From a virus, in IMG/VR virus record IMGVR_UViG_3300030419_004788, positions 32,001-96,000 of that record: a stretch of DNA of 64,000 bases. One strand, 5' to 3'. The notes below the pieces were generated by a model that had not been told where the DNA came from, made no database searches, and saw only the letters and a program-made list of their open reading frames with translations. Position numbers and translations under genes: made by a program. Shown one piece after another: positions 19,377 through 63,488 of this stretch. The first letter of the stretch is position 1. Every line of letters begins with the position of its first letter.

Positions 19377-19384
19377 TATTTATA
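19377..19384 (-). promoter_or_regulatory. T4-type late promoter TATAAATA upstream of gp18
   Basis: Exact TATAAATA on the minus strand in the gp17-gp18 intergenic region. Confidence 0.75.
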
Positions 19385-24071: not shown

Positions 24072-24079
24072 TATTTATA
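24072..24079 (-). promoter_or_regulatory. T4-type late promoter TATAAATA upstream of gp13
   Basis: Exact motif 21 nt before the ATG at 24050, followed by SD AGGAG. A TATACATA variant also lies at 24094-24101. Confidence 0.8.
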
Positions 24080-26445: not shown

Positions 26446-26453
26446 TATTTATA
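26446..26453 (-). promoter_or_regulatory. T4-type late promoter TATAAATA
   Basis: Exact motif 16 nt upstream of the ATG at 26429. Confidence 0.8.
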
Positions 26454-37251: not shown

Positions 37252-37259
37252 TATTTATA
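37252..37259 (-). promoter_or_regulatory. T4-type late promoter TATAAATA
   Basis: Exact motif 33 nt upstream of the ATG at 37218. Confidence 0.8.
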
Positions 37260-40200: not shown

Positions 40201-40527
40201 ACCAGAATCAAAAGTAATACCATCACCTGTTGCACCTGTACAACCTTCGACTGCAATTGTTGTTCCTGTGTCGATGGTAAATGTAAGTGTTCCAAGACCA
40301 TACGAATTACCACCAGAGGTTATACCATATGAAAATCCTGAAGTTCCATCATCAAAATCATACCATTCAAATGTAATTCCAGAACCAGTAATACCAGTAG
40401 CACCTGTTGGACCAGTAACACCAGTAGCACCAGTTGGACCTGTTGGACCTGTATTACCTGTGGGTCCTTGAATCGAACCCATAGCACTCGTGTCGTGTAT
40501 TCTACTTGAGCCGTGAATTACTGCCAT
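37264..40527 (-). CDS. Cys-rich putative fibre/adhesin (1087 aa) with collagen-like N-terminus, GACC repeats and a von Willebrand factor A-like domain
   Basis: GPTGNTGPTGPTGATGVTGPTGATGITG, TAYFRTLTSSG and GSCC/GACC units. vWA-like block DVMLLADTNIEM...KILIIISNG...AENLKNDGVIIYAICV...LATSSEYY at about 37915-38470. Confidence 0.7.
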   Translation of the reverse strand: MAVIHGSSRIHDTSAMGSIQGPTGNTGPTGPTGATGVTGPTGATGITGSGITFEWYDFDDGTSGFSYGITSGGNSYGLGTLTFTIDTGTTIAVEGCTGATGDGITFDSGQWHTSSDIDNATTNSPYSEIFKELISDGTAGGTAYFRTLTSSGRDISILGVTDYDIRIRGATYQYGIMGNTGELVHIYDGLSAHGSLNTFWDDDKKNLIARLTTFREAKSSVNLEKEDSIENTSTVGSTAGQTGEFVPFTYISTNADGKTEIYSGFHMGQTHDSVLGTSTDVKHVFDNSKTINDTLYAADSSNLGSCCYCTDNTIGEDDYPGCVDYVTEDYCTNLGGVFDTTTCLSRPEGPNCYSEGACCVNGICAETSLNRCRNIYGGFYVEGKTCVDVEILGGCPEPCQETGACCVENACYEMSEYQCSFEPNSVFFIGGSCTGEDAVNCCLEGSIGACCVGDTNTSARCYETSPSVCVNLTASDGSKGTFWGVGSRCAGPNRIGGGGDYEGAAYAPFSCTWCRESGTDIDNWPTENGGPAGFVNVDGLCLDENGVPYDPPIYAPCPLCRGWQQSIGGVCEDFGGNICECPEVGYGDGPGQCYIEDLPICQPGSVNIEEECLGMCCHLTFEGVWGCEQKTSRACSDLNDGIDNSYSHIFWSGCSTNNYNTPDPIGPPTSLGGEHLLADECRSLTSSPDVMLLADTNIEMFQFSNIIKPALTSFVDQLDSRYEKIGFNDSVFTDTSVDISLTNNYARVKEGIYSMAIGDRVLTRPLQLVRGDFEIVTNRINTELNHTHGKILIIISNGNFRSSAEAEAAIAEAENLKNDGVIIYAICVDVGTENTHPEWVSPLATSSEYYSMIGINDIKDTLNQIGHAISCGGEDVTISTTSMQTGSIILADGTPYECCCDYDGTALQGKNIGGNFDKGITDKTNMSCCDERGEPCPDGFDTSELMTSCCWWLNEGEDAINETVGRSCEWIGSEGSPAHPWLSADEVCMALKHGTSFPDNNCNNVNMDGCCCFTDNWALPSHLTWLYEFNDWQIPQAGDCIEQGWSGYYAHQMNETRCQFFGGCWVHRGTCNGGVAGGECPDGNSCG

Positions 40528-43500: not shown

Positions 43501-43675
43501 GTCCATCCGTTGCATTTATAGACATTGCAGTGATACCACCACCACTCCAACCAATAGGTCCTTCAACTGTTGGTCCATCAGGTCCAGTAGGTCCCGTTTC
43601 ACCAGTGTTACCAGTCGGTCCAGTTACTTCGGTTGCCCCAACGACTTTAAAATAACTGCTACCATATACTACCAT
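40529..43675 (-). CDS. Cys-rich putative tail fibre (1048 aa) with collagen-like N-terminus, four GAC(C) units and C-terminal DUF1566/Lcl-like domain
   Basis: GPTGNTGETGPTGPDGP and SFTLIVKG...VIWPFDRQPCFSGGTDIFNF fibre domain. GACC x3 plus GACY. C-terminal GDEYAGGVVVG...WYIPSHDEMSFIA...WHWTST...AWAMKF...KVRPIRLI. Confidence 0.7.
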   Translation of the reverse strand: MVVYGSSYFKVVGATEVTGPTGNTGETGPTGPDGPTVEGPIGWSGGGITAMSINATDGLYTQFERFEDGGTSVITTWTTPTSIIGPTGNTETIIDGGNTYGENLLGFGGSGGATVFKVQDSSNKITIRSIEGTGGVLTNTTLEHLNTIDLNYDRGNFGYLDVTGGSGVTGQLVGGQLTGLTGATYNISGTSGGISVRLKSYRENSKYLSFRHNNDGAGTTYEITTYDGAWPPYVLQSGGIGGVLEPNKFGVVELDLTALNDFDYSVGSTGPIQTIDIADASFGYTGNNIGTLNDIGKSFTLIVKGATYGPQNNFQFSNVIWPFDRQPCFSGGTDIFNFFWLPCETRNSDCPGGRICPDGVAWHGNIVQWNSAGTVISEGTSDDPFFCHDREKQCGEFLYYPEEQVSYKGSERKLFGATGSTGACCRGEGECIHTIEDLCTGYWHGSNTVCGGLTSGWTGSICFDTGACCVHYTNSGKIECFNDLSVDDCINLGELLDVETSFGGLSADCRNMDCDNASRGLGACCDGRGGCSQRTRKECLALGYYFHGEGSVCSLDDGTEICYGGTGACYYSGGTCGNGITGSDCISGGNLYAGKGTKCEDTRHRTDEHSSCVPVVAGLDLMPGDEYAGGVVVGLYRPFGSQVFGSKSFGESKDADWQNLMLGATGSLSDNLGLTCDLYRSKYDWHGYGFTSEKGCPDYDRLPLEDDELSRPDAYYMIISPSPVAITGDRQVINYYNSDFDGATQEFYWGNRGSSWGPLHNPDTGQVDEIHENYIQTVFKLSEGYWFNENIGEKSLNVLGSHTFTSCRNARRLGSGYAQKLTTKPLQSAHGLWHRNWGIYNTIRIINADNVLYEGYDDKDGHYSSTDFGPGLTSDYISAFRATRLMDDNLTTITGGTGTNDAVVSSWYIPSHDEMSFIASNCVSSNPHDFDLNASLLIKGAVPLDGWHWTSTGAFDETKGRTASGEGVIGSGGSTADAGSLAWAMKFDINEKENNFLVGKKNRTRNTYKVRPIRLIRCDGKYATGGHANQKLWDLPKVIRDSDQGINQ

Positions 43676-47408: not shown

Positions 47409-47416
47409 TATTTATA
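47409..47416 (-). promoter_or_regulatory. T4-type late promoter TATAAATA
   Basis: Exact motif 18 nt upstream of the ATG at 47390. Confidence 0.8.
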
Positions 47417-50483: not shown

Positions 50484-51725
50484 TTATGTCCAACATTGTC
50501 CAGTACCTAAAGTACATCCCGTTATCCCTATATTTGGACTGCTTGTAGAGGGATAAAGATATATAAAGTCACGAATATATATGCCTCCAAAAGTTAGTCC
50601 GGCATCAATATCAGAATCCCAAGTAGGCCATTGGTGTGATGGTAAATTATATTCAGCAGATATGCCTCCGCCACCTACTGCACCCCAACCTTGCCCCATT
50701 GTCCAACCACCAGATGGACCACCGAATGCACCTAAAGTTGCACCAATATATGCGGTAGGACCGTCATAACCAAACGCACTGCCACAACAGCCAATACATG
50801 CAGAATATCCTGTAGTTCCTAACGCAGAACCAATTCCTCCTGTATTACTTAAACGATATGCAAAATAATTTCCTAATACTGTCTGTTCACCCTGAAATAT
50901 ATTACCTTCATAATCATCTGGGGGAACATAATCATTAATGGTTTGTTCAAAAAATCCTTTAGTACCAGCAGGATGTAACATTTTATTTAAATCATTATAA
51001 TAAATTGGCAATCCAGTTGTTTCATCAACAACATCAACTCCTGCTTTCACAACATAAGAGAAATCTTGATAGAAATCACTGTCTTGTATTTTATAATTCC
51101 CATTTAGGAAACTACCACCAAGATGATTAAGACTTTCATAATAACCAGTAGAACCATCCGCACCCCATCCTTGGTCATCAAATTTACCACCGTTTAAACG
51201 AAATACGGTTTGCTTAGGATACTGTATGGATACATCAGTTCCTTTAGAACCAAAAAGACTTTGAAAGAAATATCGATATGCTTGTTCATTACTTTTCTGT
51301 TGATATAGATTTTGGCGAATTCCCTTTATGAACTCTCTTATATTTTCATCTGAAACTCCAGAAGTTGCACCAATAGATTCTGTTGAAAGACCAGTTGCAT
51401 AAGAATAAGCAAATTGTTTTAAAAATTTTGTGGGGGTTTCGTCCACATCTGATAATTTTCCAAACCCATTGTAATGATATGATGTTTTATTTAATTCATA
51501 TCCACTCTTGATGTATAACCAATTATAATATTCTTGTACAAAATTAACCAAAAAATTAGTAGGATTGCTTGATGACGACCTTTCCACTATCCAATATGGG
51601 AATAGGTCTGTAATATCCACCATTCTCTCATATTCTACATCTATTGACTGAAGTTCAGGTCCAAACGAAAGAGTTTGGTATCTAGTATTAGCATCAGAAT
51701 TTTTTAGAATAGAGCCATAAAACAT
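50484..51725 (-). CDS. gp7: Baseplate wedge initiator gp7-like (short)
   Basis: FVQEYYNWL, DVDETPTKFL, FIKGIRQNLYQQKSNEQAYRYFFQSLFG, YPKQTVFRL, KIQDSDFYQDFSYVVK and LHPAGTKGF. Confidence 0.75.
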   Translation of the reverse strand: MFYGSILKNSDANTRYQTLSFGPELQSIDVEYERMVDITDLFPYWIVERSSSSNPTNFLVNFVQEYYNWLYIKSGYELNKTSYHYNGFGKLSDVDETPTKFLKQFAYSYATGLSTESIGATSGVSDENIREFIKGIRQNLYQQKSNEQAYRYFFQSLFGSKGTDVSIQYPKQTVFRLNGGKFDDQGWGADGSTGYYESLNHLGGSFLNGNYKIQDSDFYQDFSYVVKAGVDVVDETTGLPIYYNDLNKMLHPAGTKGFFEQTINDYVPPDDYEGNIFQGEQTVLGNYFAYRLSNTGGIGSALGTTGYSACIGCCGSAFGYDGPTAYIGATLGAFGGPSGGWTMGQGWGAVGGGGISAEYNLPSHQWPTWDSDIDAGLTFGGIYIRDFIYLYPSTSSPNIGITGCTLGTGQCWT

Positions 51726-51729
51726 AGTA

Positions 51730-53565
51730 TTAATTTCTTGCTACTAACGCAAAGTCCTCAAAAATTAAATTAGAAAAATACATATTTTCTTTTATTTCAA
51801 ATTTATCAGAACCAATACCACCAGGCTTAACTTCCAAATCAATACTGTTGTCAGAGAAAATGTTTACCGTCACATTAACTTCTCCTGTTAGTGGTTTCCA
51901 ATTTCCAACTGAATAAATGGTATCTCCAACGGAATTAACAACATATAACTTTTGAAATCCTTTTGAATCAAGATTACCTTCTGAATATAGTTTTATTAAC
52001 TCTCCGTCATCCAATCCCATTTCACCTTTGATATAAGAACTTGGTGTGAAAAATTCAGTTACCAGAGAACTTTCTTCGCATATATTTCTAAAGTGTTGTG
52101 TATCTATACCACCGTTAGTAACTGGACATGGTTTTCTTAATTTTAAAGAAAGTTCGTCAGAAGAAACACCAAAAGAAGAATCTATAGAATTTATAGTGGT
52201 TGATATCCAAGAAGTGTCAAATTTTTCTAATTCAAATCTGGATGAATATGTTTCTAAAAGTTTTTGTCTTACATATCCCATTAATGTTTCTTGAGAATAT
52301 TCTGTTTCTCCAGGATTGTATGTGCATTCACCAGAAACAACACCATTGACTGTTTCCAGATTCATAAATTCTGGAATAATAGTGACACAAGTTTTCTCTT
52401 TTAAAATATTCATTGCAGTTGTAGATGCATATGGGTCTGTTGTAGTATCTAAAGAAACAAAAAGTCTTCCGTATCTTGGAGGTGTCATTGTTTCCCCACC
52501 CCACACATTAAATACAGAATAAGGGTCTTCAGAACCTGTTACAAATCCTGCTTCTGCAAGAATACCTCTACAGTCGTCCAAAGTAACTGCTCTATTTTGT
52601 GAAGCAAACCACTTTGGAGCAAAAAATCTAATTGCTTCTAAATCTGGTTTGTCCATACCACCGTTAGAAAGACCATTACTAGGAGTAGAACTAGTGAGGG
52701 ATACACTAGATGTACTTGCACCGTCAGGGGGATATGTTATATCTCTAATAGTAAAATTACCACAAGCATTTCCAACAGAACCACTACTCTTTAAATATGA
52801 AACTCTTACTTGTTGATTTGGGGTAAGTTCTTTTCCTATTTTTTCGTAGGAAGAATCAAACCCACCACCAAACACTACAAAGAATCCAAGTTCACTTCTT
52901 TCTAACCAATATACTTTACTTGTCTGATTTAATCCTGATTGTGTGTTAGTTGCTTGTGACCATTGTTCCCATCCCACATCACTTCCATCAGTATTTTGTT
53001 CTGTGCTATACACTTCGATTCTAACTGTCGATATGTCTATATCTAAACCAAAAAGAAATGATTTATTTGTTACACTATCTACAACTATTGGAGATTCTTT
53101 TACCAGAGCCTTTCCTTCTACAACAGTAAATGTATTTTCACCTTGACTGTCTAAAACCCCATCTTCAAGTGTATAGAAATTATATGCTATACCATTCGGA
53201 GAATTTCCAGTAAATCTTGTATATCTAGGAATAAGATATCCAGAACCATTGGCGCCATCACTAGACGAAACGGTTGCTAATCCTTTGGCAGAGGTTTTTC
53301 CTGGAACAACATAACCCAAAGGTTTTACAAGTGAAACTATAGATTGTTCTTTTTGTGCGGTGTCTAAAAACATTTCATTAGCAGTCATGTTTGCATAATA
53401 TCCATAATATAAAGTATTATATGCAAGCATATCTAAAAGAACTTGTGCAGCCGAACCATTATAATCATAATCTTTAATATCGTTTTGTGTTTTAAGGTGT
53501 TCTATGATACTGGATTTAATAGATTCAAAATCAAGATTACCAAGTTGAATGTTTACATTACTCAT
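51730..53565 (-). CDS. gp6: Baseplate wedge protein gp6
   Basis: LDFESIKSSI..HL, DYDYNGSA..VLLDMLAYNT, NEMFLDTAQ..SIVSL.K.LGYVP, IRFFAPKWFASQNRAVT.DD and VWGGET.TPPRYGRLFVS. Confidence 0.92.
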   Translation of the reverse strand: MSNVNIQLGNLDFESIKSSIIEHLKTQNDIKDYDYNGSAAQVLLDMLAYNTLYYGYYANMTANEMFLDTAQKEQSIVSLVKPLGYVVPGKTSAKGLATVSSSDGANGSGYLIPRYTRFTGNSPNGIAYNFYTLEDGVLDSQGENTFTVVEGKALVKESPIVVDSVTNKSFLFGLDIDISTVRIEVYSTEQNTDGSDVGWEQWSQATNTQSGLNQTSKVYWLERSELGFFVVFGGGFDSSYEKIGKELTPNQQVRVSYLKSSGSVGNACGNFTIRDITYPPDGASTSSVSLTSSTPSNGLSNGGMDKPDLEAIRFFAPKWFASQNRAVTLDDCRGILAEAGFVTGSEDPYSVFNVWGGETMTPPRYGRLFVSLDTTTDPYASTTAMNILKEKTCVTIIPEFMNLETVNGVVSGECTYNPGETEYSQETLMGYVRQKLLETYSSRFELEKFDTSWISTTINSIDSSFGVSSDELSLKLRKPCPVTNGGIDTQHFRNICEESSLVTEFFTPSSYIKGEMGLDDGELIKLYSEGNLDSKGFQKLYVVNSVGDTIYSVGNWKPLTGEVNVTVNIFSDNSIDLEVKPGGIGSDKFEIKENMYFSNLIFEDFALVARN

Positions 53566-53566
53566 T

Positions 53567-53989
53567 TTATCTTACCTTCTGTACTGTTACTTCTAAAGTG
53601 TCTGTTAATTGTGTCCTTCTTCCTTTAAGAATACTATAATTGATTTTTATATTAAACTGATTTGCAGTTCCAGAACTTCCTTCCTTTGCAACACTAGAAT
53701 CTTCTTCTATAACAACAGAATCGATTCTTGCTCTGGGTTCTAATCTAGAAATTGCTCCAACTATATCTCTTTGTAATTTTTTCTCTGTCAATGGAGTCCA
53801 CAATTCAAACAAACGACTACGAAGACCTACACCAAAATCATCATTAAATCTTTTTTCTCCAGGAACGGTCAAAACTATATTCATAATAGATTGACGAATA
53901 GCATCCCTATCTCTAACTATAGAGATATCATCGTTAAATGGATTTTTGTTTAAATCTATATCAAAATCTGTAAATTGAAAAGTTGACAT
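53567..53989 (-). CDS. gp25: Baseplate wedge protein gp25; start refined to the ATG at 53989
   Basis: FTDFDIDLNKNPFNDDI, DAIRQSIMNIVLTVPGEKRFNDDFGVGL..LFE and ISRLEPRARI. SD AAGGA precedes the ATG at 53989. Confidence 0.92.
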   Translation of the reverse strand: MSTFQFTDFDIDLNKNPFNDDISIVRDRDAIRQSIMNIVLTVPGEKRFNDDFGVGLRSRLFELWTPLTEKKLQRDIVGAISRLEPRARIDSVVIEEDSSVAKEGSSGTANQFNIKINYSILKGRRTQLTDTLEVTVQKVR

Positions 53990-54021
53990 TAAATGTTCCT
54001 TTTTGATATATGTATAATATC

Positions 54022-54837
54022 TTAACCAGATATCCAATTCCAAATTTCACCAAAGAGTCCCAAATATTCACTTGTTTCTGGGTCGATTGGACTGCTATCC
54101 CTCACTAAAGTTATTAACATCTTATGTTGTCCTCCCCTTATAATATTATGATGAATTTCAGCAACTAACCATCTACCACCCATTCTTCTTTCTTTATCCG
54201 AACCAACATTTTTATTTGTTATATTGATTAATTCGCCAGGTCTTAAAGTCAAATCGCCATTTAACATAATTACTGCTTGTTGTGACTTGATTAACATCAT
54301 TTGTGCATCTCTCCAAAGAGGAGTGTATGTTGGAGTATCCCAATATGTTGCACTTGTTCTTGAATATTCAATATATTTTTTAAAGTCTTCACCTACACAT
54401 GGACAATTACAACTGCTAGGGTGGTTTTGGTCTTTCCATAAACATCCCATCCAAGATTCTCCAAGTAAAGGATTGTTTTCAATCAAATCACATTCTTTTA
54501 TAGATTTTATAGATTCTATTATTTGTTCTTTTGTTGGTTCTTCATATGCACCACCCCCCAATAAAGAATTCAATATACCTTCTACAATACCAGTAGCAAC
54601 ACCAAAAGACCACCAAGGCAGGTCTATCAAATCATTTTCTTTGTATGGATTTAATTCTTGACATGGACAATTGCAAAGAGGATTATCATCAGAACAATCT
54701 GAATTATCCACAGGACCTTCTGGATTAGCACAGGGATAAGTATCATCAAATGCACCAACAGAATGTCCCAACTTGACACTAGGCCATTCGGTATTAGCAA
54801 AGTGAGTGAGTTTTACTAGAAAGTCATGTTTTGCCAT
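54022..54837 (-). CDS. Protein carrying the C-terminal portion of a gp27-like baseplate hub, preceded by a Cys-containing N-terminal region
   Basis: C-terminal AVIMLNGDLTLRPGELINI...RMGGRWLVAEIHHNI...MLITLVRDS is the typical end of gp27/gpD-type hubs. N-terminal CNCPC motif occurs twice. Confidence 0.65.
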   Translation of the reverse strand: MAKHDFLVKLTHFANTEWPSVKLGHSVGAFDDTYPCANPEGPVDNSDCSDDNPLCNCPCQELNPYKENDLIDLPWWSFGVATGIVEGILNSLLGGGAYEEPTKEQIIESIKSIKECDLIENNPLLGESWMGCLWKDQNHPSSCNCPCVGEDFKKYIEYSRTSATYWDTPTYTPLWRDAQMMLIKSQQAVIMLNGDLTLRPGELINITNKNVGSDKERRMGGRWLVAEIHHNIIRGGQHKMLITLVRDSSPIDPETSEYLGLFGEIWNWISG

Positions 54838-54852
54838 ATATTTCTCCTAATC

Positions 54853-54860
54853 TATTTATA
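54853..54860 (-). promoter_or_regulatory. T4-type late promoter TATAAATA
   Basis: Exact motif 15 nt upstream of the ATG at 54837, with SD AGGAG. Confidence 0.8.
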
Positions 54861-54864
54861 CGAT

Positions 54865-57800
54865 TTATAGACATACTATACCATTTCTTGTGTTTAAACA
54901 ATTACATTCACACCCTGCATCGATGCATTCTTGTCGGCAATCTCTTTCTCCGTTAGAAGGCTCATCATAGTCATCGTCATCCGTTAGCCCGACTAGCGGG
55001 CTCCATCCACAACCGTTCTTCTGCTCCCAGTAGAAGTCACCACATTGACCCCAAGTGGAGTCATCGGGATTATACCAAGACCAATCACCATCAGAACCAG
55101 CACATTCGTTCAAACATACCTCCCCACTGAATTCCTGAACAAAGCAATCCCCGCAATAAACCCCACAACAATTTATCATACAAGGAACTTGCGCGCATGA
55201 AACACAAGGACCTCTCCACGCAGGCCACCACATCCAACCATCATCAATGTCTGATTGATTCTGACATTCTGCCTGCGTGAGATAGTCTGTACAGCGTATA
55301 TAGTCGTCATTCGATTGCTGCCAACAACAAGCACCCCTCCAAGTGCAAAAATCACTACAACTTGTACCCGAACCTTGGAAATCACCACCTAAAAGTTGAC
55401 ATTGAAGTAGACCAATTTCCATACAATGCCCACAGTTATCGAGGCAACATGCACCAATATCTACATCACAGTCAAAATTACAATATTCACAACACGATTG
55501 GTTGTCAGGTATATAAGGCAACCAGTATCCATCATCAACTGCATCGCAATAAGGTTCTACACACCAGAAGTCACCAATACATTCACACCCTCTGCATGGG
55601 TTTGGAATTCCCTGAATTTCACACGCCGTCATACTTGTTGCATCCTGATTGCAACATGTTCCTTTTGGATAAACACATTGATATTGTGCAAATCCTCCAG
55701 TATCACAAACAGAACCTACACCCAGAAAAACACCCGAATAATTTTTTATACAATCATCTTCAGTATATCCATCACCACAATTACCAAAACAAGGACCAGG
55801 ACTACAAAATTCATCAACATCAATACAACAAGCACCAGTTTGGTCTGGGTCACATATACTATTATTTGTATCGTAGCAAGTAGGGTCTGGGTAATCATCT
55901 GCTAAACAATCATACTCATTCCAAGAAATTCCAAGCAAGTCATCAAGACATTCATTTTCAAATGAGCAGTCTTTACAGCAATAGTCATCCTTGCAATCAT
56001 CATGACAACAATATCCAGGATTACAATTTGTATCTTCACACAATCGTCCTTGATTATAATATACTGTCTTTGTTCCATTTTCGTCTTTGTCTTCACAGTC
56101 ATCTTGACTTACAACATCTTCACACTGTCCTACACAAGTAATTGGTTTGCCAACTTTATCAAAACATTCAGAAATACAACATGAGCCAAAGTCTAGACAA
56201 TTTATTGATTCATCGACATTACAGTCTTCCCCACAAGCACAATCTTCACAAGAATGCCATACTACAGTTCCCTCGCATTGTCCTTGCCCTGCGATATAAA
56301 CTTCACATAACCAATTACTCATCATATCACAACTACTTAGACATTGACTTTGATTACCATCTATACAACAACAAGAACCACAACAATCAACTTCATCACA
56401 AGATATTCCTTCATGGAAAGTATTGGTTGCTATTCCATCCTGTGGTCCTACACCCTTTAACATACATTCTTCATATGAATTTGCATAGACACAACAACAC
56501 CCAAACTCTCCAGTATTATCACATTCAGGACTTGCCCCAGCGTCCAAACCAATACAACATGCACCACCTTCACATTCACTTGTGTCGCATGGATTATTTT
56601 CACATTTATATCCTTCTTGCCAATCACCCTCATACTTATCACACCCTTGTTGTGTTATTGTGTCTATGCATTGTTGGCAAGTTTCTCCATAAGGAAAACA
56701 ACATGCCCAACCTTCACTCGGTTCTTCGCATTCAGCATCTTGACAAGAAACTCCATCTCCCTGATAATAACCACCACTACCCTCACATGCAAGTAGTGTA
56801 AGTTCTAGACAATTCCCCTCATCGTAACAACATGCACCTACTTCAAATTCACAAATACTACCATCACCGCATACTGTATCTGGACCTCGCCAAGACCCAG
56901 TTGAACTAACACAATCTGATTCAGTTAGTTCGTCAAAACATTCATCACTTTCTTCAAAACAACATGCACCAACTGGGTCACATATATTTTCATTATCCTC
57001 GCAAATAACATCTTCGTGAAAGTTTGCTTCTCCAGAATTTTTTACACATAAATGCTTTCTCACATTATTATTACACCCATCATTAGGCCAATTACAACAC
57101 ACACCTGTAATATAACAAGCATCACAATTGCCTCCATCGGATTCATCCGCAGAGAGTGTCCACATATTTTCAACATCCGATGGTTCATATCCATTCTCTT
57201 GTGCAATTCTACAACATTCATATTTGTATACTAAATTACCACCATCGAATCCTTTCCCTTCACTCAAACAACAATTAGGGTCTGTAAGACTATTTGCAGA
57301 ACATCCCTCTGCTAAAGAACAACATAATTTTTTATCTTGTTCATCACAAGTAATATCTGCACATGTTAAATCACAAGAACCAATACCACTTGGATGAACT
57401 TCTTCTGGACCCCACCAAATTCCAGGCAATCTATTTCCGTTGTCATCTTCATACCCAAAACATTCCCAGACAGTAACATCGTCTAGACACTCACCGTTTG
57501 GTAAACAACATGGTGCAGTTGGAAGACATGGATTTTCAGAAGTATAATTATCTGGGGCTTTGTTATCCCAATAACTATCACTCTCTGTGCATGAATAATT
57601 TGGCATCTCACCATCAAGAAAATCATCACACATAAATCTCCAGAAATCACTATTGCAGGCTCTTAGTTTTAATGTTTCTGCATCGAGTTGAATTTCTGGA
57701 TGTAAAGTTTCTTGCTCCCACCACCACATTGGAATCTGTGAATTGGTAGCACCCCAAACATTGGAATCATATACAACAACAACTGCACCGTCACCATTAG

Positions 57801-58956
57801 GTTTCCATACAACCGTACACCCTTCACCGTTACAATGTCCAACTAGTCCTTCACCTTTTCCTTTTGGAAGGAGTCCACTGCTAGAAGAACAATGAAACGA
57901 AAATGATTTTACTACTTCTTCATCTTGTTTTAGGAATGGTCTTTTTGACCTTTGACAACAAGAAATTGTTGGTGATGTTCCATCTTCCCTTGCAAATGCT
58001 TCAAAATTATTGATATAGTTTTCATCTCTTTCTGAATCATAATATTCATCATTTCTGAATTCAAAGAATTCTTCTATTTCTTCTTCATCATCTTGTCTTG
58101 CACAATGCAATGCAAAGTTTCTTAATAGTTCTGCCACTTCTTCACCAGATAAAGGCTCTGCATCGTCAACATCTAGACACTTAGTAGTATAATAATTTGA
58201 ATCATTAAAGAATCCTATCTTCTCTTTACATTCTATTGCTCCCGGACTTCCACTGGATTCTCCCATCACAATTAATTTACCACCAGACTTAACCCACTCG
58301 CGAACTTCATCCCAATCACTTTCTGGTGGTGGGACAGTAACAATGTCAGAACCACATAACGGAAATTGGTCTGTGTTTGGATTTTGAGAACCAAAGTTCT
58401 TTCCGATAGCACCAACGAATGCCAATTTATGACAACCAAGATTACCTTCCGCACCAAGAGTACAGTGCATTGTACAATCACCTTTTGGTAATAGTGGTCC
58501 TTCCCAATTGTCTATCCAATCTGTAAATGCTTGTGGTGACCATGGCAAAAGTCCCATAGGAGAATCGTATTGATAGAATGTAGATTTTGGAATAATCTTA
58601 TCATGAAAAGAATACGATTCGTCATTGATGTATTCTGTCCAACAACTATTCCACTCCTCACCACACCCCAACGAATAAAAGTCCCAACCTTCTTCTCCAT
58701 TGTGCCAACACAAATTTCCATAATGTAAATTGTCTGGATGCCCATCACTTTCTTGCAGTCTACCATCCCATTCCTCATCACCTTGATTTCGTGTAGGTTG
58801 ATATGGAGCAAATTCTTCAAAGTCTGTTGCACTAATTGTAGTTGTACCCAATGCACATATGGGACAGTTTGCTCCTCCACCGTTATAACGATATTCGTTA
58901 TCCCACTCTTTACAAGGTTTATCTCCGCAACAGCAACATGTTTTATATGTTCTCAT
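54865..58956 (-). CDS. Giant Cys-rich protein (1363 aa): N-terminal CCCC, GATase1-like/DUF4350-like domain, ~15 GxCC repeats
   Basis: MRTYKTCCCCG, then EVREWVKSGGKLIVMGES...GDGAVVVVYDSNVWG...FWRFMC, then tandem GACC/GVCC/GSCC/GTCC units to the C-terminus. Confidence 0.7.
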   Translation of the reverse strand: MRTYKTCCCCGDKPCKEWDNEYRYNGGGANCPICALGTTTISATDFEEFAPYQPTRNQGDEEWDGRLQESDGHPDNLHYGNLCWHNGEEGWDFYSLGCGEEWNSCWTEYINDESYSFHDKIIPKSTFYQYDSPMGLLPWSPQAFTDWIDNWEGPLLPKGDCTMHCTLGAEGNLGCHKLAFVGAIGKNFGSQNPNTDQFPLCGSDIVTVPPPESDWDEVREWVKSGGKLIVMGESSGSPGAIECKEKIGFFNDSNYYTTKCLDVDDAEPLSGEEVAELLRNFALHCARQDDEEEIEEFFEFRNDEYYDSERDENYINNFEAFAREDGTSPTISCCQRSKRPFLKQDEEVVKSFSFHCSSSSGLLPKGKGEGLVGHCNGEGCTVVWKPNGDGAVVVVYDSNVWGATNSQIPMWWWEQETLHPEIQLDAETLKLRACNSDFWRFMCDDFLDGEMPNYSCTESDSYWDNKAPDNYTSENPCLPTAPCCLPNGECLDDVTVWECFGYEDDNGNRLPGIWWGPEEVHPSGIGSCDLTCADITCDEQDKKLCCSLAEGCSANSLTDPNCCLSEGKGFDGGNLVYKYECCRIAQENGYEPSDVENMWTLSADESDGGNCDACYITGVCCNWPNDGCNNNVRKHLCVKNSGEANFHEDVICEDNENICDPVGACCFEESDECFDELTESDCVSSTGSWRGPDTVCGDGSICEFEVGACCYDEGNCLELTLLACEGSGGYYQGDGVSCQDAECEEPSEGWACCFPYGETCQQCIDTITQQGCDKYEGDWQEGYKCENNPCDTSECEGGACCIGLDAGASPECDNTGEFGCCCVYANSYEECMLKGVGPQDGIATNTFHEGISCDEVDCCGSCCCIDGNQSQCLSSCDMMSNWLCEVYIAGQGQCEGTVVWHSCEDCACGEDCNVDESINCLDFGSCCISECFDKVGKPITCVGQCEDVVSQDDCEDKDENGTKTVYYNQGRLCEDTNCNPGYCCHDDCKDDYCCKDCSFENECLDDLLGISWNEYDCLADDYPDPTCYDTNNSICDPDQTGACCIDVDEFCSPGPCFGNCGDGYTEDDCIKNYSGVFLGVGSVCDTGGFAQYQCVYPKGTCCNQDATSMTACEIQGIPNPCRGCECIGDFWCVEPYCDAVDDGYWLPYIPDNQSCCEYCNFDCDVDIGACCLDNCGHCMEIGLLQCQLLGGDFQGSGTSCSDFCTWRGACCWQQSNDDYIRCTDYLTQAECQNQSDIDDGWMWWPAWRGPCVSCAQVPCMINCCGVYCGDCFVQEFSGEVCLNECAGSDGDWSWYNPDDSTWGQCGDFYWEQKNGCGWSPLVGLTDDDDYDEPSNGERDCRQECIDAGCECNCLNTRNGIVCL

Positions 58957-58972
58957 AATATAAGTATACTAA

Positions 58973-61144
58973 TTAAGAAAGACACCCGCACAATCCATCG
59001 TGTGCATTTGGAACATCGAAGAAATATATGTCTTTCGGAATAGTTGGGTCTGGGTCACCCAATGGGTCTTCTTCGTTTGGAGCAATTGTTCCCTTTACAA
59101 CTTCTCCGTCTTCATTTAATTCTCCTAGCATATAATTAGGAATTCTATACATTTGTACAATATGGCGTTGCATGGTCCAAGGTCCATCCATTATATCGTT
59201 CTCGTTACTTTGTAAATCGCATGGGTCGTCCAATATATCAGCATCATCTGCAACTTGAAAATATCCACCTACTGGCATCATTTGATATGATTCGGGATAA
59301 TCATTATATTCTAAATCAGCAACATTAATACCAGGACCAACATTAACATTAGTACCGTCTGTTGTGTTCATTAATTCGTTTAAGTTATAAGCAGGGTTTG
59401 TCCATTCCTCACCTTCTGGGTTTGCTCCTCTAAATGTTCCTGCTAGACCTTGACCTTCAGGCGGTATAACAATTTTTACTGGTGAACCTTCTGGACTAAT
59501 GTCTGTACCTATATAGTTTTCCTCGTCCACATGGTCACTAGGCCATATCTCAACTTCTCTCCAAGAATATTCGTAGATTCCGCCCCTGTCATCTGGTGTA
59601 ACCTTTTTTGCATCTTCAATAACTGCAAGAAACACAAAAGGTTTAATAGTTTGTTTATCACAACAAATCGAGTGTCTGTACACATTAAACTTTTCTTTAA
59701 GGTTTATTAATTGTAAATGTTCTTTAAAGTTTTCAGATGTTGGGACTTTAACATCTTCTTGAATAGTTTTTATTATTTTACCCTCAAGGTTTGTTTGGTC
59801 GAACATTGTTTGCCAAAGAATATCATTTCTTTTTCCTTGTTTTCCTTCTAGTGCGGCAGAACCGAGAAAATCATAAGACTTATCCCCGTAGTAATTATAT
59901 GGAGAATCAAAATATCCATACAGCCCAGTATGGTCATGTTTCCTCACTGACTTTCTTTCTATGTTTACTGGATTGTCAATGTTTATAGAAGTGTCCACAC
60001 TTTCAGGTATAATTTTAAATCTTTCAACTCGTCCACCGTCCTCATTGTCCCCCCAATTTTCTTCTACATCTCGATGGTAATCATATGTAATAATTTCTCT
60101 ACCACCCCAATCAGTTGATAGCGGATGCGTATGCATTGTAGTGAAATCTAAATAATCAAAATATGGGTCATTATAATTTGGTTTAATTCTTTCATAATAT
60201 GCTGTATATGCACCACTCTTAAAAAGATTCAAATGGTCATATTCACTGATAGTTATCATTGCACCAATTCTTCTGTCGGGTTCTCCTTCTTGCATTTTTT
60301 CCCAATCTTCTTCATCAGTAATTGCATATTCATTTTTTCCGCCATGGTCCCCACCAAGTAATACACCCTTTTCGTTAGCATCTAAAATCATTTTCCTAAT
60401 AGACTTAAAATGCCATCCATCTAAATCCGCATAGAATAAATAATTTGCACCTTTCATGTCTTCATCAATGGAATTTTCTGAAAGGTTATTGAGAAGTTGC
60501 ATAAGATTTGGTGGATGAACATCCTTACCCCAAGGATACATACTTTGATTCTTTTTCAACCATATCCAGTTGTGTGTAGGGTCGATTTCCATTTCCTTTT
60601 GGGCAAAACTAAAATCACTTACTCCAGGATTTAAATATTTCCCTGCTAACTCATTTACTAAACCATCATCGCCAGCAATTTTACCAATAAAATCTTTATC
60701 CATATAATCTAGATTATCCCAATCTAAGATATAACTTTCACAAGATACAAATTCCACTTCCCATCCTGCTCCAGGTCTAGCACTTGGTCCAGATGTTGCT
60801 TCTAATGCATCATCACCAAGTGGTCTTACATCATTCACACAAAAAGTTAATTCATGTCTTGAATCTTCTATCAGTGGAGATTCTATCACAATGTCAATAA
60901 ATTCGTTACCTGTCATGTTGAAATAGTCACCAACAGAAGAAGGTTCTTTGAATTTTAAAGTTCCACTTATACCACTCGAAAATATACTTTCATTTATCTG
61001 TAGACTGACAAAGATTTCTTCCATCACACCATCTTGTACTTCAGCGGGTAAAACTTTAAGTTCTGTTTCACTTCTTACATTTCGTAAAACTATCTTTTCG
61101 ACATTAATATCTGATGATGTTTGTTTTTCGTTGTCTGGGGGCAT
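58973..61144 (-). CDS. Baseplate hub gp27-like N-terminal part, fused to an unrelated C-terminal domain
   Basis: INVEKIVL, VSLQINESIFSSGISGTLKF, GNEFIDIVIESP, NLMQLLNNL, YLFYADLDGWHFKSIRKM. Lacks the usual hub C-terminus and ends instead with IYEYSWREVE...PAYNLNE...YFFDVPNAHDGLCGC. Confidence 0.7.
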   Translation of the reverse strand: MPPDNEKQTSSDINVEKIVLRNVRSETELKVLPAEVQDGVMEEIFVSLQINESIFSSGISGTLKFKEPSSVGDYFNMTGNEFIDIVIESPLIEDSRHELTFCVNDVRPLGDDALEATSGPSARPGAGWEVEFVSCESYILDWDNLDYMDKDFIGKIAGDDGLVNELAGKYLNPGVSDFSFAQKEMEIDPTHNWIWLKKNQSMYPWGKDVHPPNLMQLLNNLSENSIDEDMKGANYLFYADLDGWHFKSIRKMILDANEKGVLLGGDHGGKNEYAITDEEDWEKMQEGEPDRRIGAMITISEYDHLNLFKSGAYTAYYERIKPNYNDPYFDYLDFTTMHTHPLSTDWGGREIITYDYHRDVEENWGDNEDGGRVERFKIIPESVDTSINIDNPVNIERKSVRKHDHTGLYGYFDSPYNYYGDKSYDFLGSAALEGKQGKRNDILWQTMFDQTNLEGKIIKTIQEDVKVPTSENFKEHLQLINLKEKFNVYRHSICCDKQTIKPFVFLAVIEDAKKVTPDDRGGIYEYSWREVEIWPSDHVDEENYIGTDISPEGSPVKIVIPPEGQGLAGTFRGANPEGEEWTNPAYNLNELMNTTDGTNVNVGPGINVADLEYNDYPESYQMMPVGGYFQVADDADILDDPCDLQSNENDIMDGPWTMQRHIVQMYRIPNYMLGELNEDGEVVKGTIAPNEEDPLGDPDPTIPKDIYFFDVPNAHDGLCGCLS

Positions 61145-61166: not shown

Positions 61167-62171
61167 TTACGAGTAAGTTATAATTTTGGTAGTACCTCTA
61201 GGAACATTTCCTTTTAATAGTGTGGTTATTTCTGAGGATACTTGTCCTGCTAAGTTTGGAGATAATAGTTTAATTGTTCTACTTCTATCATTATCATATA
61301 CAATTTCTTCTTCAACGGTAACTATAGAAACTGCTTCTGGTAATGATGCTCCTGTCATATATTTATAGAGTAAAGTTCCAGTCAAGCCACACATATTACG
61401 GAATTGAAAATAATCAGCAGTTAGTCCATCATTGGTATAGGGATTTAAATCATTTACTAATTCTCCAGTTCTGTATGAAAATCTAGAAACTGCTTCTTTG
61501 ATAGAAGTTTTCTTTTGTACCTTTGCAAATGTTGCACCTGCGGTTGCACACAATGGAGCGGCATCTGAATCAGGAGCAGTAAATACAGTACAACCTGTAG
61601 CAGTCACATTTTGTCTAAAGCATCCTGTTTCACCAAATCCTTCTGTTAATGGGTTTGTCCACTGTCCTTGTCCGTCTAATCCAAATGCACATATTTCATC
61701 TCCTGTAGAAATAGTTCCTTTCTTTTGTTTCACATCTATCCTATGAAAAATTTTATCATATGAGTCTACTACTCCAAAATGGTCTATATCAATCCCTCCA
61801 GTTTTAGTTGTATCTCTTTTGACTACTATATCTCCAGGACCGATGACTAAATCTTCTAATACAAAATAACTATCTCCATTTAAAAAGTTATTAAATAATG
61901 ATTTTATTTGAGATTGAGATTTAGGCCATTCTGTTTGTACATCAACTATATTATTTGACAATAAAACTAACCACCAATAATTTGAACTCCCATAAAAAAT
62001 TCTTGCAACATCATCTGGTCTTGCTCCTTCTGGAACTAAAAACTCCTCAAAGTTTTTAGCATCTGCAAGGGTTTTATCTGTAAATTTTACCCTACTAAAT
62101 ATGTCCTGCATTTCCAATTCTGGAATACCAGGAAAATTGTAATTTAACTGTTGCATCTTTTCAAAATACAT
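61167..62171 (-). CDS. gp53: Baseplate wedge protein gp53 (LysM-like) with internal insertion; start refined to the ATG at 62171
   Basis: MYFEKMQQLNY, VPEGARPDDVARIFYGSSNYWWLVLLSNNIVD...EWP and C-terminal EEEIVYDNDRSRTIKLL. Confidence 0.8.
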   Translation of the reverse strand: MYFEKMQQLNYNFPGIPELEMQDIFSRVKFTDKTLADAKNFEEFLVPEGARPDDVARIFYGSSNYWWLVLLSNNIVDVQTEWPKSQSQIKSLFNNFLNGDSYFVLEDLVIGPGDIVVKRDTTKTGGIDIDHFGVVDSYDKIFHRIDVKQKKGTISTGDEICAFGLDGQGQWTNPLTEGFGETGCFRQNVTATGCTVFTAPDSDAAPLCATAGATFAKVQKKTSIKEAVSRFSYRTGELVNDLNPYTNDGLTADYFQFRNMCGLTGTLLYKYMTGASLPEAVSIVTVEEEIVYDNDRSRTIKLLSPNLAGQVSSEITTLLKGNVPRGTTKIITYS

Positions 62172-62173
62172 TA

Positions 62174-62992
62174 TTAATCTCCACCTCTGGCAGCACCACT
62201 TCGCAACTGACTTCTTGATTGTATAAATGCTCCAGTATTGATTGCTGGTTCTAGTTCTTGGAATTGCAAGGTAAGTCCTGTAGCGGCAGGCCATCCACCA
62301 GAAACTCTATGTAATGAACCTTGTGCTGTAGTAACTTTTACATTTGCTAATACACTTGGTAATGGCTCCATGTCCCATCTGACTCCTTGACCTTCTGAAA
62401 AGTCAAAAGCAGAAATGTGCCACACAGGAGGATGAATAACTCTTGAGTATTGTTCATATCCAGATGCCATAGGAAATGCTAATGCTTGAAATGCCATGAC
62501 AATATCATGAATCTTTTGTCCTTGTTCAGAATTTTTTGGTATCAGTGTCCAAGAATAACTATGATTTCTAAAGTTCGCACCTTGAAATATACTATCTCTT
62601 TCATCCATTGGTCTTTGTCCATAAAGAGCAGAAAACCCTAACATATCCTTTGCCCAAGAAACAGCACCAAATCCAGTTTTAAGTGATTCCCACCAACCAC
62701 CAGGCGTCATGTCCCACAAACCACCAGTAGTTTCCGATTGTCCAGTACCATAATTTATTGCATTGTCCACTCCAACATTTAAAGGCAAAGGTAAAGTTAT
62801 ATCAGCAAATTTACCAACACCAGCATTTTCTCTAATTGCTTGTTTGTTTGTATATGGGTCTGCCAAAAAATTAATACTTACTGGAATTTTTAATCCATTA
62901 TTTGAGGGGTCTGCGCCAAAATCTTCTTCACTTGGAAATGTTAATTCTCCGTGACTAAAATCCGTTCCCATACCATGAAATTCTTCTGCCAT
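62174..62992 (-). CDS. gp48: Baseplate tail-tube cap gp48
   Basis: ITLPLPLNV.VDNAINY, FQGANFRNHSYSWTLIPKNSEQGQKIHDIV..F, HPPVW and LTLQFQELEP. Directly upstream of gp53. Confidence 0.78.
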   Translation of the reverse strand: MAEEFHGMGTDFSHGELTFPSEEDFGADPSNNGLKIPVSINFLADPYTNKQAIRENAGVGKFADITLPLPLNVGVDNAINYGTGQSETTGGLWDMTPGGWWESLKTGFGAVSWAKDMLGFSALYGQRPMDERDSIFQGANFRNHSYSWTLIPKNSEQGQKIHDIVMAFQALAFPMASGYEQYSRVIHPPVWHISAFDFSEGQGVRWDMEPLPSVLANVKVTTAQGSLHRVSGGWPAATGLTLQFQELEPAINTGAFIQSRSQLRSGAARGGD

Positions 62993-63480: not shown

Positions 63481-63488
63481 TATAAATA
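63481..63488 (+). promoter_or_regulatory. T4-type late promoter TATAAATA
   Basis: Exact motif 18 nt upstream of the ATG at 63507. Confidence 0.8.

What the first reader, a model, noticed from the sequence alone, without database searches (positions are those of the whole stretch)
54022..61144. Baseplate hub (gp27-like) appears split into two genes by an inserted ~5.5 kb cassette containing a giant Cys-rich gene
Seen: 58973-61144 has the N-terminal hub motifs but lacks the hub C-terminus, ending in a foreign domain (IYEYSWREVE...PAYNLNELMN...GPGINV...YPESYQMMPVGG...YFFDVPNAHDGLCGC). The missing C-terminal hub motif (NGDLTLRPGELINI...GGRWLVAEIHH...LVRDS) lies at the end of 54022-54837, which has its own TATAAATA promoter, SD and a new Cys-containing N-terminus. 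Between them sits the 1363 aa CCCC/GACC protein. Established: the gp27/gpD hub is normally one polypeptide that forms the central trimer. Inference: a cassette was inserted into the hub gene, and both halves still assemble and may anchor the Cys-rich protein at the baseplate centre. From unverified recollection, a similar foreign domain followed by an M-x-x-x-CCC gene occurs in uncultured tailed phages.
Basis: partly seen in the sequence, partly recalled or inferred. Interest (0 to 1): 0.78.

Follow-up and report, generated by a model that had tools for sequence, protein, structure and literature searches.

The report
Split phage baseplate hub with nested gene
In an uncultured marine T4-like phage the central baseplate hub, normally one protein, is encoded as two genes that are predicted to refold into one hub, and a giant cysteine-rich fibre-like gene sits between them; this layout is common in ocean viromes and, in the sources searched here, unannotated.

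Summary
In the operon gp48-gp53-X-gp25-gp6-gp7 (minus strand), X is three genes: a 723-aa protein, a 1363-aa protein with 11% Cys, and a 271-aa protein.

- **Hub match.** Residues 6-264 of the 723-aa protein match the gp27 fold. Its first ~450 residues and the last ~100 residues of the 271-aa protein map onto consecutive parts of a compact 480-aa cyanophage hub (phrog_350).
- **One-gene relatives.** At least 30 metagenomic relatives carry both parts in one 1434-2118-aa protein, with an unrelated middle.
- **Co-folding.** The two halves co-fold with ipSAE 0.87 against 0.01 for the best control.
- **Conservation.** The three-gene layout recurs in all 23 IMG/VR loci found.

More distant relatives have the same split and the same "foreign" tail domain, with the two halves adjacent and no Cys gene. 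So the split does not depend on the Cys gene. The Cys-containing part of the 271-aa protein is ancestral hub, not new.

The Cys protein has a conserved GATase1-like N-domain and hypervariable bead repeats shared with this phage's fibre genes. It is probably a hub-associated fibre or adhesin; that is inferred, not shown. First readers noted this same stretch twice.

Verdict: a new variant of a known kind, of moderate to high interest.

The parts
59660..61144 (-). hubN core, residues 1-495 of the 723-aa protein P0001. It comprises gp27-like tube domain 1, the middle domain, the start of the second barrel, and a long helix (455-494) ending in an invariant Cys-Cys (494-495).
   Evidence: Foldseek top hit is T4 gp27 1k28_D, E 6.6e-6. 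VIA gives Z 11.0, rmsd 3.4, 202 residues aligned, model 6-264 to chain 2-208 of the top hit 9f4a_BE, a chain of the Klebsiella phage KP1 baseplate cup. phrog_350 is matched at positions 31-96 and 173-275. It aligns to residues 1-~500 of all unsplit relatives.
58976..59659 (-). Tail domain of hubN (residues 496-723), ending in the invariant F-D-V-x-N-A-H-D-G-L-C-x-C. Fold unknown. It is absent from unsplit hubs and present in all split hubs seen.
   Evidence: Alignments A2 and A7. hhalign against unsplit hubs finds nothing. No Pfam, PDB or Atlas hit. It is present in two-gene split relatives without a Cys gene.
58957..58972 (-). 16-nt AT-only spacer between the hubN stop codon and the Cys-protein ATG. 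It has no Shine-Dalgarno sequence and no late-promoter motif, so translational coupling is likely.
   Evidence: In relatives the gap is 2-21 nt, AT-only, and the reading frame is not conserved.
57457..58956 (-). Conserved N-domain (residues 1-500) of the Cys-rich protein P0003. It starts M-R-T-x-K-T-C-C-C-C-G-D-K-P-C and has a GATase1-like/GIFT-like fold.
   Evidence: Alignments A1 and A6. AF2 model: pLDDT 54.6, pTM 0.65. VIA hits: IFT52 N-domain Z 9.8, rmsd 3.9, 197 aa; GH42 domain Z 9.4; Planctomyces GATase1-like 3rht Z 8.0. Foldseek hit STM3548, E 4.9e-4.
54865..57456 (-). Hypervariable Cys-rich repeat region of P0003 (residues 501-1363, 13-19 Cys per 100 aa, twelve G-x-C-C bead starts), with the stop codon.
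   Evidence: It is 44% identical to the nearest relative, against 76-90% for the flanking parts. blastp gives E 1e-4 to 4e-8 against window ORFs 26458-31419, 31450-37218, 37264-40527 and 40529-43675.
54838..54864 (-). Intergenic gap holding TATAAATA (54853-54860) and AGGAG (54844-54848) ahead of hubC.
   Evidence: An exact TATAAATA lies at -17 to -27 in 9 of the 16 relatives' loci examined, and most of them have GGAG.
54022..54837 (-). hubC (P0002, 271 aa). Residues 1-33 are specific to split forms. Residues 34-150 form a Cys 'collar' with eight invariant Cys. Residues 149-252 are the hub's C-terminal ~100 residues (G-D-L-T-L-R-P-G ... G-R-W-L-V ... R-D-S).
   Evidence: phrog_350 positions 349-435, E 3.6e-9. 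The Pfam YQBQ C-terminal end is hit by 9 of 17 family members, best E 7.4e-4. hhalign aligns it to S-RSM4 hub residues 370-471, E 1.4e-4. It aligns to the C-terminus of all unsplit relatives. Co-fold with hubN: ipSAE 0.87 against 0.01.
61167..62992 (-). Upstream neighbours: gp53-like wedge protein (61167-62294) and gp48-like tube cap (62174-62992).
   Evidence: Pfam Phage_gp53, phrog_232 and phrog_230.
50484..54043 (-). Downstream neighbours: gp25 (53567-54043), gp6 (51730-53565) and a gp7-like wedge protein (50484-51725).
   Evidence: Pfam GPW_gp25 and Gp6-like_1st; phrog_261 and phrog_219.

Best explanation
The central baseplate hub (gp27-like) of this phage is a two-chain protein.

**The two chains.** hubN (723 aa) supplies the first tube-like barrel, the middle domain and the start of the second barrel. 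hubC (271 aa) supplies the last ~100 residues of the hub fold. The break lies at a single point of the compact hub fold. By order along the chain, that is the place where T4 gp27's second barrel is itself interrupted by an inserted domain.

**A variable site.** In this whole phage family that point carries a large elaboration. A conserved 'collar' (hubN helix 455-494 with Cys-Cys, plus hubC residues 34-150 with eight invariant Cys) holds a variable module. The module comes in three layouts:
1. In one chain, as a 700-1400-aa insert.
2. As two adjacent genes, hubN with a 200-260-aa tail domain followed by hubC.
3. As in this window, with one or two extra genes for a Cys-rich protein placed between the halves.

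**Expression.** The Cys-protein gene starts 16 nt after the hubN stop codon, with no ribosome-binding site, so it is probably translationally coupled to hubN. hubC is restarted by its own late promoter and Shine-Dalgarno sequence.

**The Cys protein.** It has a conserved GATase1-like N-domain, taken here as the anchor, and a fast-evolving chain of Cys beads like those of the phage's fibre genes. It is most likely a hub-associated fibre or adhesin that helps recognise the host.

**Status of each step.** Shown: the split, the unsplit relatives, the conservation and the predicted co-folding. Inferred: where the module projects, and that the Cys protein docks on the hub.
For: - **Context.** The genes sit in a T4-type baseplate operon.
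- **hubN fold.** Foldseek's top hit is T4 gp27 (E 6.6e-6). VIA gives Z 11.0, rmsd 3.4 and 202 aligned residues, model 6-264 to chain 2-208 of the top hit 9f4a_BE (Klebsiella phage KP1 baseplate cup), followed by Mu gp44 and VgrG.
- **Complementary profile coverage.** phrog_350 is covered in complementary parts by the two ORFs. In Synechococcus phage S-RSM4 the same profile is one 480-aa gene at the gp27 position.
- **Single break point.** hhalign aligns S-RSM4 6-331 to unsplit hub 8-351 (probability 95.5%) and S-RSM4 370-471 to hubC 149-252 (E 1.4e-4).
- **Unsplit relatives.** Eleven plus about 21 unsplit proteins of 1434-2118 aa carry both ends.
- **Co-folding.** Score 0.87 against 0.01 for the best of 3 controls. 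That mark was reached by 58 of 80 solved complexes and 2 of 110 mismatched pairs. The runs agree in at least 85% of contacts, and the partner's pLDDT is at least 72. There are 547-589 contacts. hubN's pLDDT is 76-81 with hubC and 65-66 with unrelated partners.
- **Conservation.** The three-gene layout is present in 23 of 23 IMG/VR loci, a four-gene version in L034, and a two-gene version in L041-L053. There are 113 stand-alone hubC clusters, many from Tara samples.
- **Junction signals.**
- **Cys protein.** The N-domain fold is. Identity to the nearest relative is 87% for the N-domain and 44% for the repeats. Relatives carry VWA, FG-GAP or dockerin domains after the N-domain. The beads are shared with the fibre ORFs.
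- **gp27 second barrel.** It is discontinuous, at residues 207-239 plus 307-368 (PMC3004832).
Against: - The AF2 model of hubN alone is confident only for residues ~10-260 (mean pLDDT 52), so the second barrel was never seen as a model. The complex tool returned contacts but no coordinates.
- Single-chain hubs of this fold are solved, so the co-fold pass may reflect likeness to them rather than independent evidence of binding. My own alignments were used, and MAFFT misplaced the first 11 residues of hubC.
- The tail domain occurs without any Cys gene in two-gene relatives, so it is not a dedicated dock for the Cys protein.
- No test of Cys-protein binding to the hub was run.
- The CysN model is of low confidence (pLDDT 54.6), and its Z scores of 8-10 are only a little above background for this search.
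- The direction of change between layouts is unresolved, because the hubN tree is rooted only at the midpoint.
Confidence: 0.7

Rival explanations
1. A mobile ~5.5-kb cassette (foreign domain plus Cys gene) landed inside an intact hub gene and split it, and the cassette's own domain anchors its cargo.
For: The Cys gene lies exactly between the halves. The tail domain and the Cys N-domain are the best-conserved parts (90% and 87% against 76% for the hub core). They co-occur in 23 of 23 loci of this clade. Neither resembles the insert of unsplit hubs. The window's clade is nested among unsplit clades in the hubN tree (SH-aLRT 95).
Against: Two more distant groups have the same split and a homologous tail domain (ending ..N-A-H-D-G-F-C..) but no Cys gene. 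No nuclease, integrase or transposase is present in the intervening DNA. No relative of the Cys N-domain was found in 185,579 species genomes by the pattern scan. This version needs later loss of the Cys gene in several lineages.
Confidence: 0.2
2. The hub is split as described, but the Cys-rich protein is not hub-bound. It is simply one more of this phage's Cys-bead fibres, whose gene sits in a permissive gap and which attaches elsewhere, for example at the baseplate rim.
For: Its repeats match four other fibre-like ORFs in the window. The tail domain exists without it. No binding test was done.
Against: The gene position is fixed between the halves in 23 of 23 loci. Its start lies 2-21 nt after the hubN stop codon with no ribosome-binding site of its own. 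The N-domain family was found only in this context.
Confidence: 0.25
3. The three ORFs are read as one polypeptide by readthrough or frameshifting, so there is no real split.
For: The Cys ORF and hubC are in the same frame in the window and in L007.
Against: The frame relation is not conserved: L009 differs, and the hubN-to-Cys gaps of 2, 6, 8, 15, 16, 17, 18 and 21 nt include lengths that are not multiples of three. The stop codons vary (TAA, TAG, TGA). hubC has its own promoter-like motif, Shine-Dalgarno sequence and ATG. There are 113 stand-alone hubC gene calls.
Confidence: 0.02
4. hubC is an independent baseplate protein that merely shares a short motif with hub C-termini. hubN is a complete, if odd, hub.
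For: The matches of hubC alone to known families are weak (YQBQ E 0.057; hhalign probability 53%).
Against: Every unsplit relative has the hubC sequence at its C-terminus (37-46% identity). All 27 unsplit proteins scanned match phrog_350; the one whose match is shown in detail (P0004) does so in three stretches, one at its C-terminal end. The co-fold has a very large interdigitated interface.
Confidence: 0.04

Closest known systems
T4 gp27 and the cyanomyovirus 'tail protein' phrog_350 (for example S-RSM4 SRSM4_227, 480 aa)
   Same: Same fold for residues 6-264. Profile match over the whole compact hub when hubN and hubC are taken together. Baseplate gene context.
   Different: Those hubs are single polypeptides of 390-480 aa. 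Here the chain is broken about 100 residues before the end, with a Cys collar and a large variable module at the break. The gene lies between gp53 and gp25 instead of next to gp26/gp51.
Hub proteins enlarged by extra domains (VgrG with C-terminal effector domains; the long hub chains of phage phi812 at 722 aa, cyanophage A-1(L) at 878 aa, and T5 pb3)
   Same: A gp27-like core decorated with extra modules. These long chains appear among the fold matches.
   Different: In those cases the additions stay within one chain. None was seen with the core fold divided between two genes or with another gene nested in the break. This rests on my own knowledge plus two literature searches that found nothing.
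Genes of T4-like phages split by an inserted gene, whose halves reassemble (from memory: nrdA split by mobE in Aeromonas phage Aeh1; split gp43 DNA polymerase)
   Same: An essential protein is encoded as two adjacent genes whose products must associate, with an unrelated gene between them.
   Different: Those intervening genes are homing endonucleases or nothing at all. Here it is a 1363-aa structural-looking protein with no nuclease domain, and the split is also found without it.
Cys-bead ('GACC') fibre proteins of the same phage
   Same: The repeat region of P0003 aligns with them.
   Different: P0003 has a different, GATase1-like N-domain and a fixed position inside the hub locus.

Membership tests
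gp27-like baseplate hub (T4 gp27 / Mu gp44 / P2 gpD / phrog_350) | N-terminal tube-like beta-barrel followed by an alpha/beta middle domain | tested here: met
   Foldseek 1k28_D E 6.6e-6. VIA 9f4a_BE Z 11.0, rmsd 3.4, 202 aa, model 6-264.
gp27-like baseplate hub (T4 gp27 / Mu gp44 / P2 gpD / phrog_350) | Second tube-like barrel that completes the pseudo-hexameric ring | tested here: inconclusive
   There is no confident model of this part. The co-fold contacts are consistent with it: for example, hubC 230-232 touches hubN strand 48-50, and hubC 164-166 touches hubN 193-195 and 449-451. No coordinates were returned.
gp27-like baseplate hub (T4 gp27 / Mu gp44 / P2 gpD / phrog_350) | Sequence-profile match along the whole hub | tested here: met
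   Met only by the two ORFs together: phrog_350 positions 31-96 and 173-275 (hubN) and 349-435 (hubC). hhalign results are.
gp27-like baseplate hub (T4 gp27 / Mu gp44 / P2 gpD / phrog_350) | Encoded in the baseplate module | tested here: met
   It lies between gp48/gp53 and gp25/gp6/gp7.
gp27-like baseplate hub (T4 gp27 / Mu gp44 / P2 gpD / phrog_350) | Forms a trimer on the tail axis | not testable with these tools
   A 3+3 model would exceed the 1000-residue limit of the complex tool.
VgrG / gp5-type fused spike | OB-fold and beta-helix after the gp27-like part | tested here: inconclusive
   No Gp5_OB, Phage_base_V or PAAR match in the 122,976-bp record, which is only 68% complete. The Gp5_OB control found nothing anywhere.
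Class I glutamine amidotransferase-like (GATase1/GIFT) fold, for the Cys-protein N-domain | Flavodoxin-like alpha/beta sandwich matching GATase1-like domains | tested here: met
   VIA: IFT52 Z 9.8, rmsd 3.9, 197 aa; GH42 Z 9.4; 3rht Z 8.0. Nearly all of the top 50 hits are of this fold. The model is of low confidence.
Class I glutamine amidotransferase-like (GATase1/GIFT) fold, for the Cys-protein N-domain | Catalytic Cys-His-Glu triad | not tested
   No residue-level superposition was made. There is no Pfam GATase hit.
Gene split by a homing endonuclease or intein | Nuclease or intein domain in the intervening DNA | tested here: not met
   No Pfam or PHROG hit of that kind in P0003 or in the tail domain.
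Cys-bead ('GACC') repeat proteins | Tandem beads starting G-x-C-C, with similarity to the phage's other bead proteins | tested here: met
   Twelve G-x-C-C starts. blastp E 1e-4 to 4e-8 against four window ORFs.

The most novel reading that the evidence does not exclude
The break point in the hub is a swappable socket. Marine T4-like phages exchange host-recognition modules at the very centre of the baseplate. The module is built into the hub chain in some phages. In others it is supplied in trans as a separate Cys-latched protein that docks between the two hub halves. In this clade the Cys-rich protein would then act as a central fibre that takes over part or all of the role of the gp5 spike.
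Probability: 0.3. Interest if true: 0.75.

Novelty: new variant of a known kind. Interest (0 to 1): 0.6.

Why it matters
In the solved contractile tails and related injection systems that matched here, the hub is a single chain. A large, abundant group of ocean phages that builds it from two chains shows that the hub's second barrel tolerates a break at a defined point. That point acts as a hot spot where very different modules are placed: a 700-1400-aa insert, a tail domain, or a whole extra gene.

If the Cys-rich protein docks there, host recognition in these phages would involve the baseplate centre and not only the peripheral fibres. That would bear on how host range is predicted for uncultured marine phages.

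On the practical side, more than 100 clusters of 'hypothetical proteins' from Tara and other marine metagenomes can now be annotated as hub halves.

Tried and rejected
- **GenBank phage records (INPHARED).** tblastn of P0001, P0002 and two distant hubN proteins found no match. The family has no deposited phage relative at BLAST level.
- **PDB sequence search.** Nothing useful for the three proteins.
- **Pfam.** No family for the tail domain, either part of the Cys protein, or the unsplit hubs.
- **Atlas search of the tail domain.** No usable hit.
- **hhalign of the tail domain and the Cys N-domain against unsplit hubs.** No similarity, so the middle modules look unrelated.
- **Scan of 185,579 species genomes with the Cys N-domain.** No relative found, though this scan is limited to two patterns.
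- **PAAR, Gp5_OB and Phage_base_V in the phage's own record.** None found, but the record is 68% complete and the Gp5_OB control failed. No conclusion about a spike is possible.
- **The part of the record past the window's end (G000 96001-122976).** gp26 is there, but no recognisable gp5. Two further fetched stretches (G000 1-32000) were not examined.
- **Literature.** Two searches found no paper on a split hub.
- **A scan with P0063** (a hubN-only protein of unknown layout) found no IMG/VR locus, so about five such clusters remain unclassified.
- **Rejected ideas.** Recoding into one chain was rejected because the frames are not conserved. An assembly artefact was rejected because many independent contigs agree.
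Full report
**What is there.** On the minus strand the window carries a T4-type baseplate operon:
- gp48-like (62174-62992) and gp53-like (61167-62294);
- a 723-aa ORF (58973-61144, P0001), a 1363-aa ORF (54865-58956, P0003, 11.4% Cys) and a 271-aa ORF (54022-54837, P0002);
- gp25, gp6 and a gp7-like wedge protein.

The gap between P0001 and P0003 is 16 nt, AT-only, with no Shine-Dalgarno sequence. The gap before P0002 reads TATAAATA, 4 nt, AGGAG, 6 nt, ATG. Seven of the ten TATAAATA copies in the window lie in short gaps just upstream of a gene on the same strand, as expected for T4-type late promoters.

**The hub is really split.**
- PHROG phrog_350 (436 positions, 'tail protein') is matched by P0001 at positions 31-96 and 173-275, and by P0002 at positions 349-435.
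- In Synechococcus phage S-RSM4 the same profile is covered end to end by one 480-aa gene. That gene lies after g26, g51 and a 3-kb gene and before g5, which is the gp27 position.
- hhalign places S-RSM4 residues 6-331 on the first 351 residues of an unsplit relative (probability 95.5%). It places S-RSM4 370-471 on P0002 149-252 (E 1.4e-4). A weaker alignment puts S-RSM4 211-381 on P0001 234-449.
- So everything between P0001 residue ~450 and P0002 residue ~149 sits at one point of the compact hub.
- An AF2 model of P0001 is confident only for residues ~10-260. That part matches T4 gp27 best by Foldseek (E 6.6e-6). By VIA it matches its top hit, chain 9f4a_BE of the Klebsiella phage KP1 baseplate cup, with Z 11.0, rmsd 3.4 and 202 aligned residues (model 6-264 to chain 2-208), followed by Mu gp44, VgrG and other hubs.
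- The second barrel of gp27 is itself discontinuous, at residues 207-239 plus 307-368 (PMC3004832). By order along the chain, the break here falls where gp27 carries its inserted domain. That is an inference.

**Unsplit relatives exist.**
- IMG/VR locus L011 has one 1459-aa ORF between gp53 and gp25. Its residues 6-454 align to P0001 7-495 (33% identity, E 4e-69), and its residues 1180-1456 align to P0002 32-265 (37% identity, E 1e-57).
- A search for longer proteins with P0002, together with an exhaustive HMMER search with P0001, found about 30 such proteins of 1434-2118 aa.
- Their middle parts are conserved among themselves. They show no similarity to P0003 or to P0001 residues 496-723, even profile against profile.
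- The Cys-containing region of P0002 (residues 34-150, eight invariant Cys) and the Cys-Cys at P0001 494-495 are conserved in the unsplit forms. They belong to the hub family and not to a new N-terminus.

**The halves are predicted to refold together.** hubN 1-500 was folded with P0002.
- The score is 0.87, against 0.01 for the best of 3 controls. That mark was reached by 58 of 80 solved complexes and 2 of 110 mismatched pairs.
- The runs agree in at least 85% of contacts, and the partner's pLDDT is at least 72.
- The interface is very large, with 547-589 contacts, and involves hubC 152-267 as well as the collar.
- hubN's own confidence is 76-81 with hubC, against 65-66 with unrelated partners.
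- Caveats: single-chain hubs of this fold are solved, so the pass may only show likeness to them. My own alignments were used. No coordinates were returned.

**How widespread, and in which layouts.**
- *Three-gene layout.* A scan with the Cys-protein family found 23 IMG/VR loci. All have gp48, gp53, hubN+tail (675-875 aa), a Cys protein (491-2745 aa), hubC (241-303 aa), then gp25, gp6 and gp7 wherever the contig extends that far.
- *Four-gene layout.* In L034, and by ORF spacing also in L022, L023 and L027, the Cys protein is itself divided into two ORFs.
- *Two-gene layout.* Two more distant groups (L041-L044 and L046-L053) have hubN+tail directly followed by hubC, with no Cys gene. Their tail domain is homologous, ending ..N-A-H-D-G-F-C.. 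in L041 and L044.
- *Consequence.* The split and the 'foreign' domain do not depend on the Cys gene.
- *Phylogeny.* In a hubN tree of 76 sequences the window's clade (24 split forms plus one fragment) has SH-aLRT 95 and is nested among unsplit clades. At least four or five changes of layout are forced. The root is only a midpoint.
- *Abundance.* There are 113 stand-alone hubC clusters, many from Tara samples. Every cluster for which a source gives a product name is called 'hypothetical protein'; none carries a functional name.
- *Cultured relatives.* The nearest cultured phages, judged by gp6, are cyanomyoviruses at under 30% identity. No deposited phage has this hub at BLAST level.

**The Cys-rich protein.**
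- The family starts M-x-T-x-[KR]-T-C-C-C-(x)-C-G-D-K-P-C and has a conserved ~500-aa N-domain.
- A low-confidence model of that domain (pLDDT 54.6, pTM 0.65) matches GATase1-like/GIFT folds: IFT52 Z 9.8, rmsd 3.9, 197 aa; a GH42 domain Z 9.4; a Planctomyces GATase1-like protein Z 8.0; Foldseek STM3548 E 4.9e-4.
- The rest is hypervariable. It is 44% identical to the nearest relative, against 87% for the N-domain, 90% for the hubN tail, 76% for the hubN core and 78% for hubC.
- It is made of G-x-C-C beads that align with four other fibre-like ORFs of the window, in line with note e1-5949426.
- Relatives carry VWA, or FG-GAP plus dockerin, after the N-domain.
- A conserved N-terminal part followed by a fast-evolving, adhesion-type distal part is the usual build of a receptor-binding protein.
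- Its start is always 2-21 nt after the hubN stop codon, with no ribosome-binding site.
- I infer a hub-associated fibre or adhesin.

**Is there a spike?** No PAAR, Gp5_OB or Phage_base_V match was found in the 122,976-bp record. That record is only 68% complete, and one control was silent. Just past the window lies gp26, followed by unassigned ORFs, among them a 474-aa Gly/Thr-rich protein. The question stays open.

**Verdict.** This is a new variant of a known kind, a gp27-like hub encoded in two pieces at a hypervariable site, here with a nested fibre-like gene.

Noticed in passing
L034:6094-9242 (also L022, L023, L027): In one subclade the Cys-rich protein is itself divided into two back-to-back ORFs, a 498-aa N-domain and a 549-aa Cys-rich protein. 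The hub locus there has four genes.
   Followed up: partly
L042:769-8998 and L043:874-8992; L041:7136-8980: In two-gene-split relatives, gp53 is enlarged to 614-1349 aa. In L042 and L043 an extra ~1390-aa ORF lies between gp53 and the hub.
   Followed up: no
L054:3616-5040 and L054:5048-6961 (G000 99616-102961, just past the window): A 474-aa Gly/Thr/Ser-rich protein with no family hit could be a beta-helical spike or fibre. Next to it is a 637-aa protein with two W-V-C-C beads and a Ser/Thr/Gly tail. They lie near gp26 and gp32.
   Followed up: partly
window 19377-19384, 24072-24079, 26446-26453, 37252-37259, 47409-47416, 54853-54860, 63481-63488: Exact TATAAATA motifs lie in short intergenic gaps just upstream of same-strand gene starts. 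They are likely T4-type late promoters for the fibre and baseplate genes.
   Followed up: partly
P0029 and P0034 (metagenomic relatives of P0003): After the conserved N-domain these relatives carry FG-GAP repeats plus a dockerin-like stretch (P0029), or a VWA domain (P0034), in place of Cys beads.
   Followed up: partly
Unsplit hubs, alignment A8 (for example P0004 residues ~880-940): The 700-1400-aa insert of unsplit hubs has its own strongly conserved motifs (R-x-E-F..P-I-G, G-x-E-Y..P-Y, D-P-Y-G-F-D) with no family assignment.
   Followed up: no
window 53567-54043 and 61167-62294: The longest ORFs for gp25 (TTG start) and gp53 overlap their neighbours by 22 and 121 nt. Relatives suggest shorter products (132-144 aa and 330-350 aa), so the true starts are probably further downstream.
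   Followed up: no
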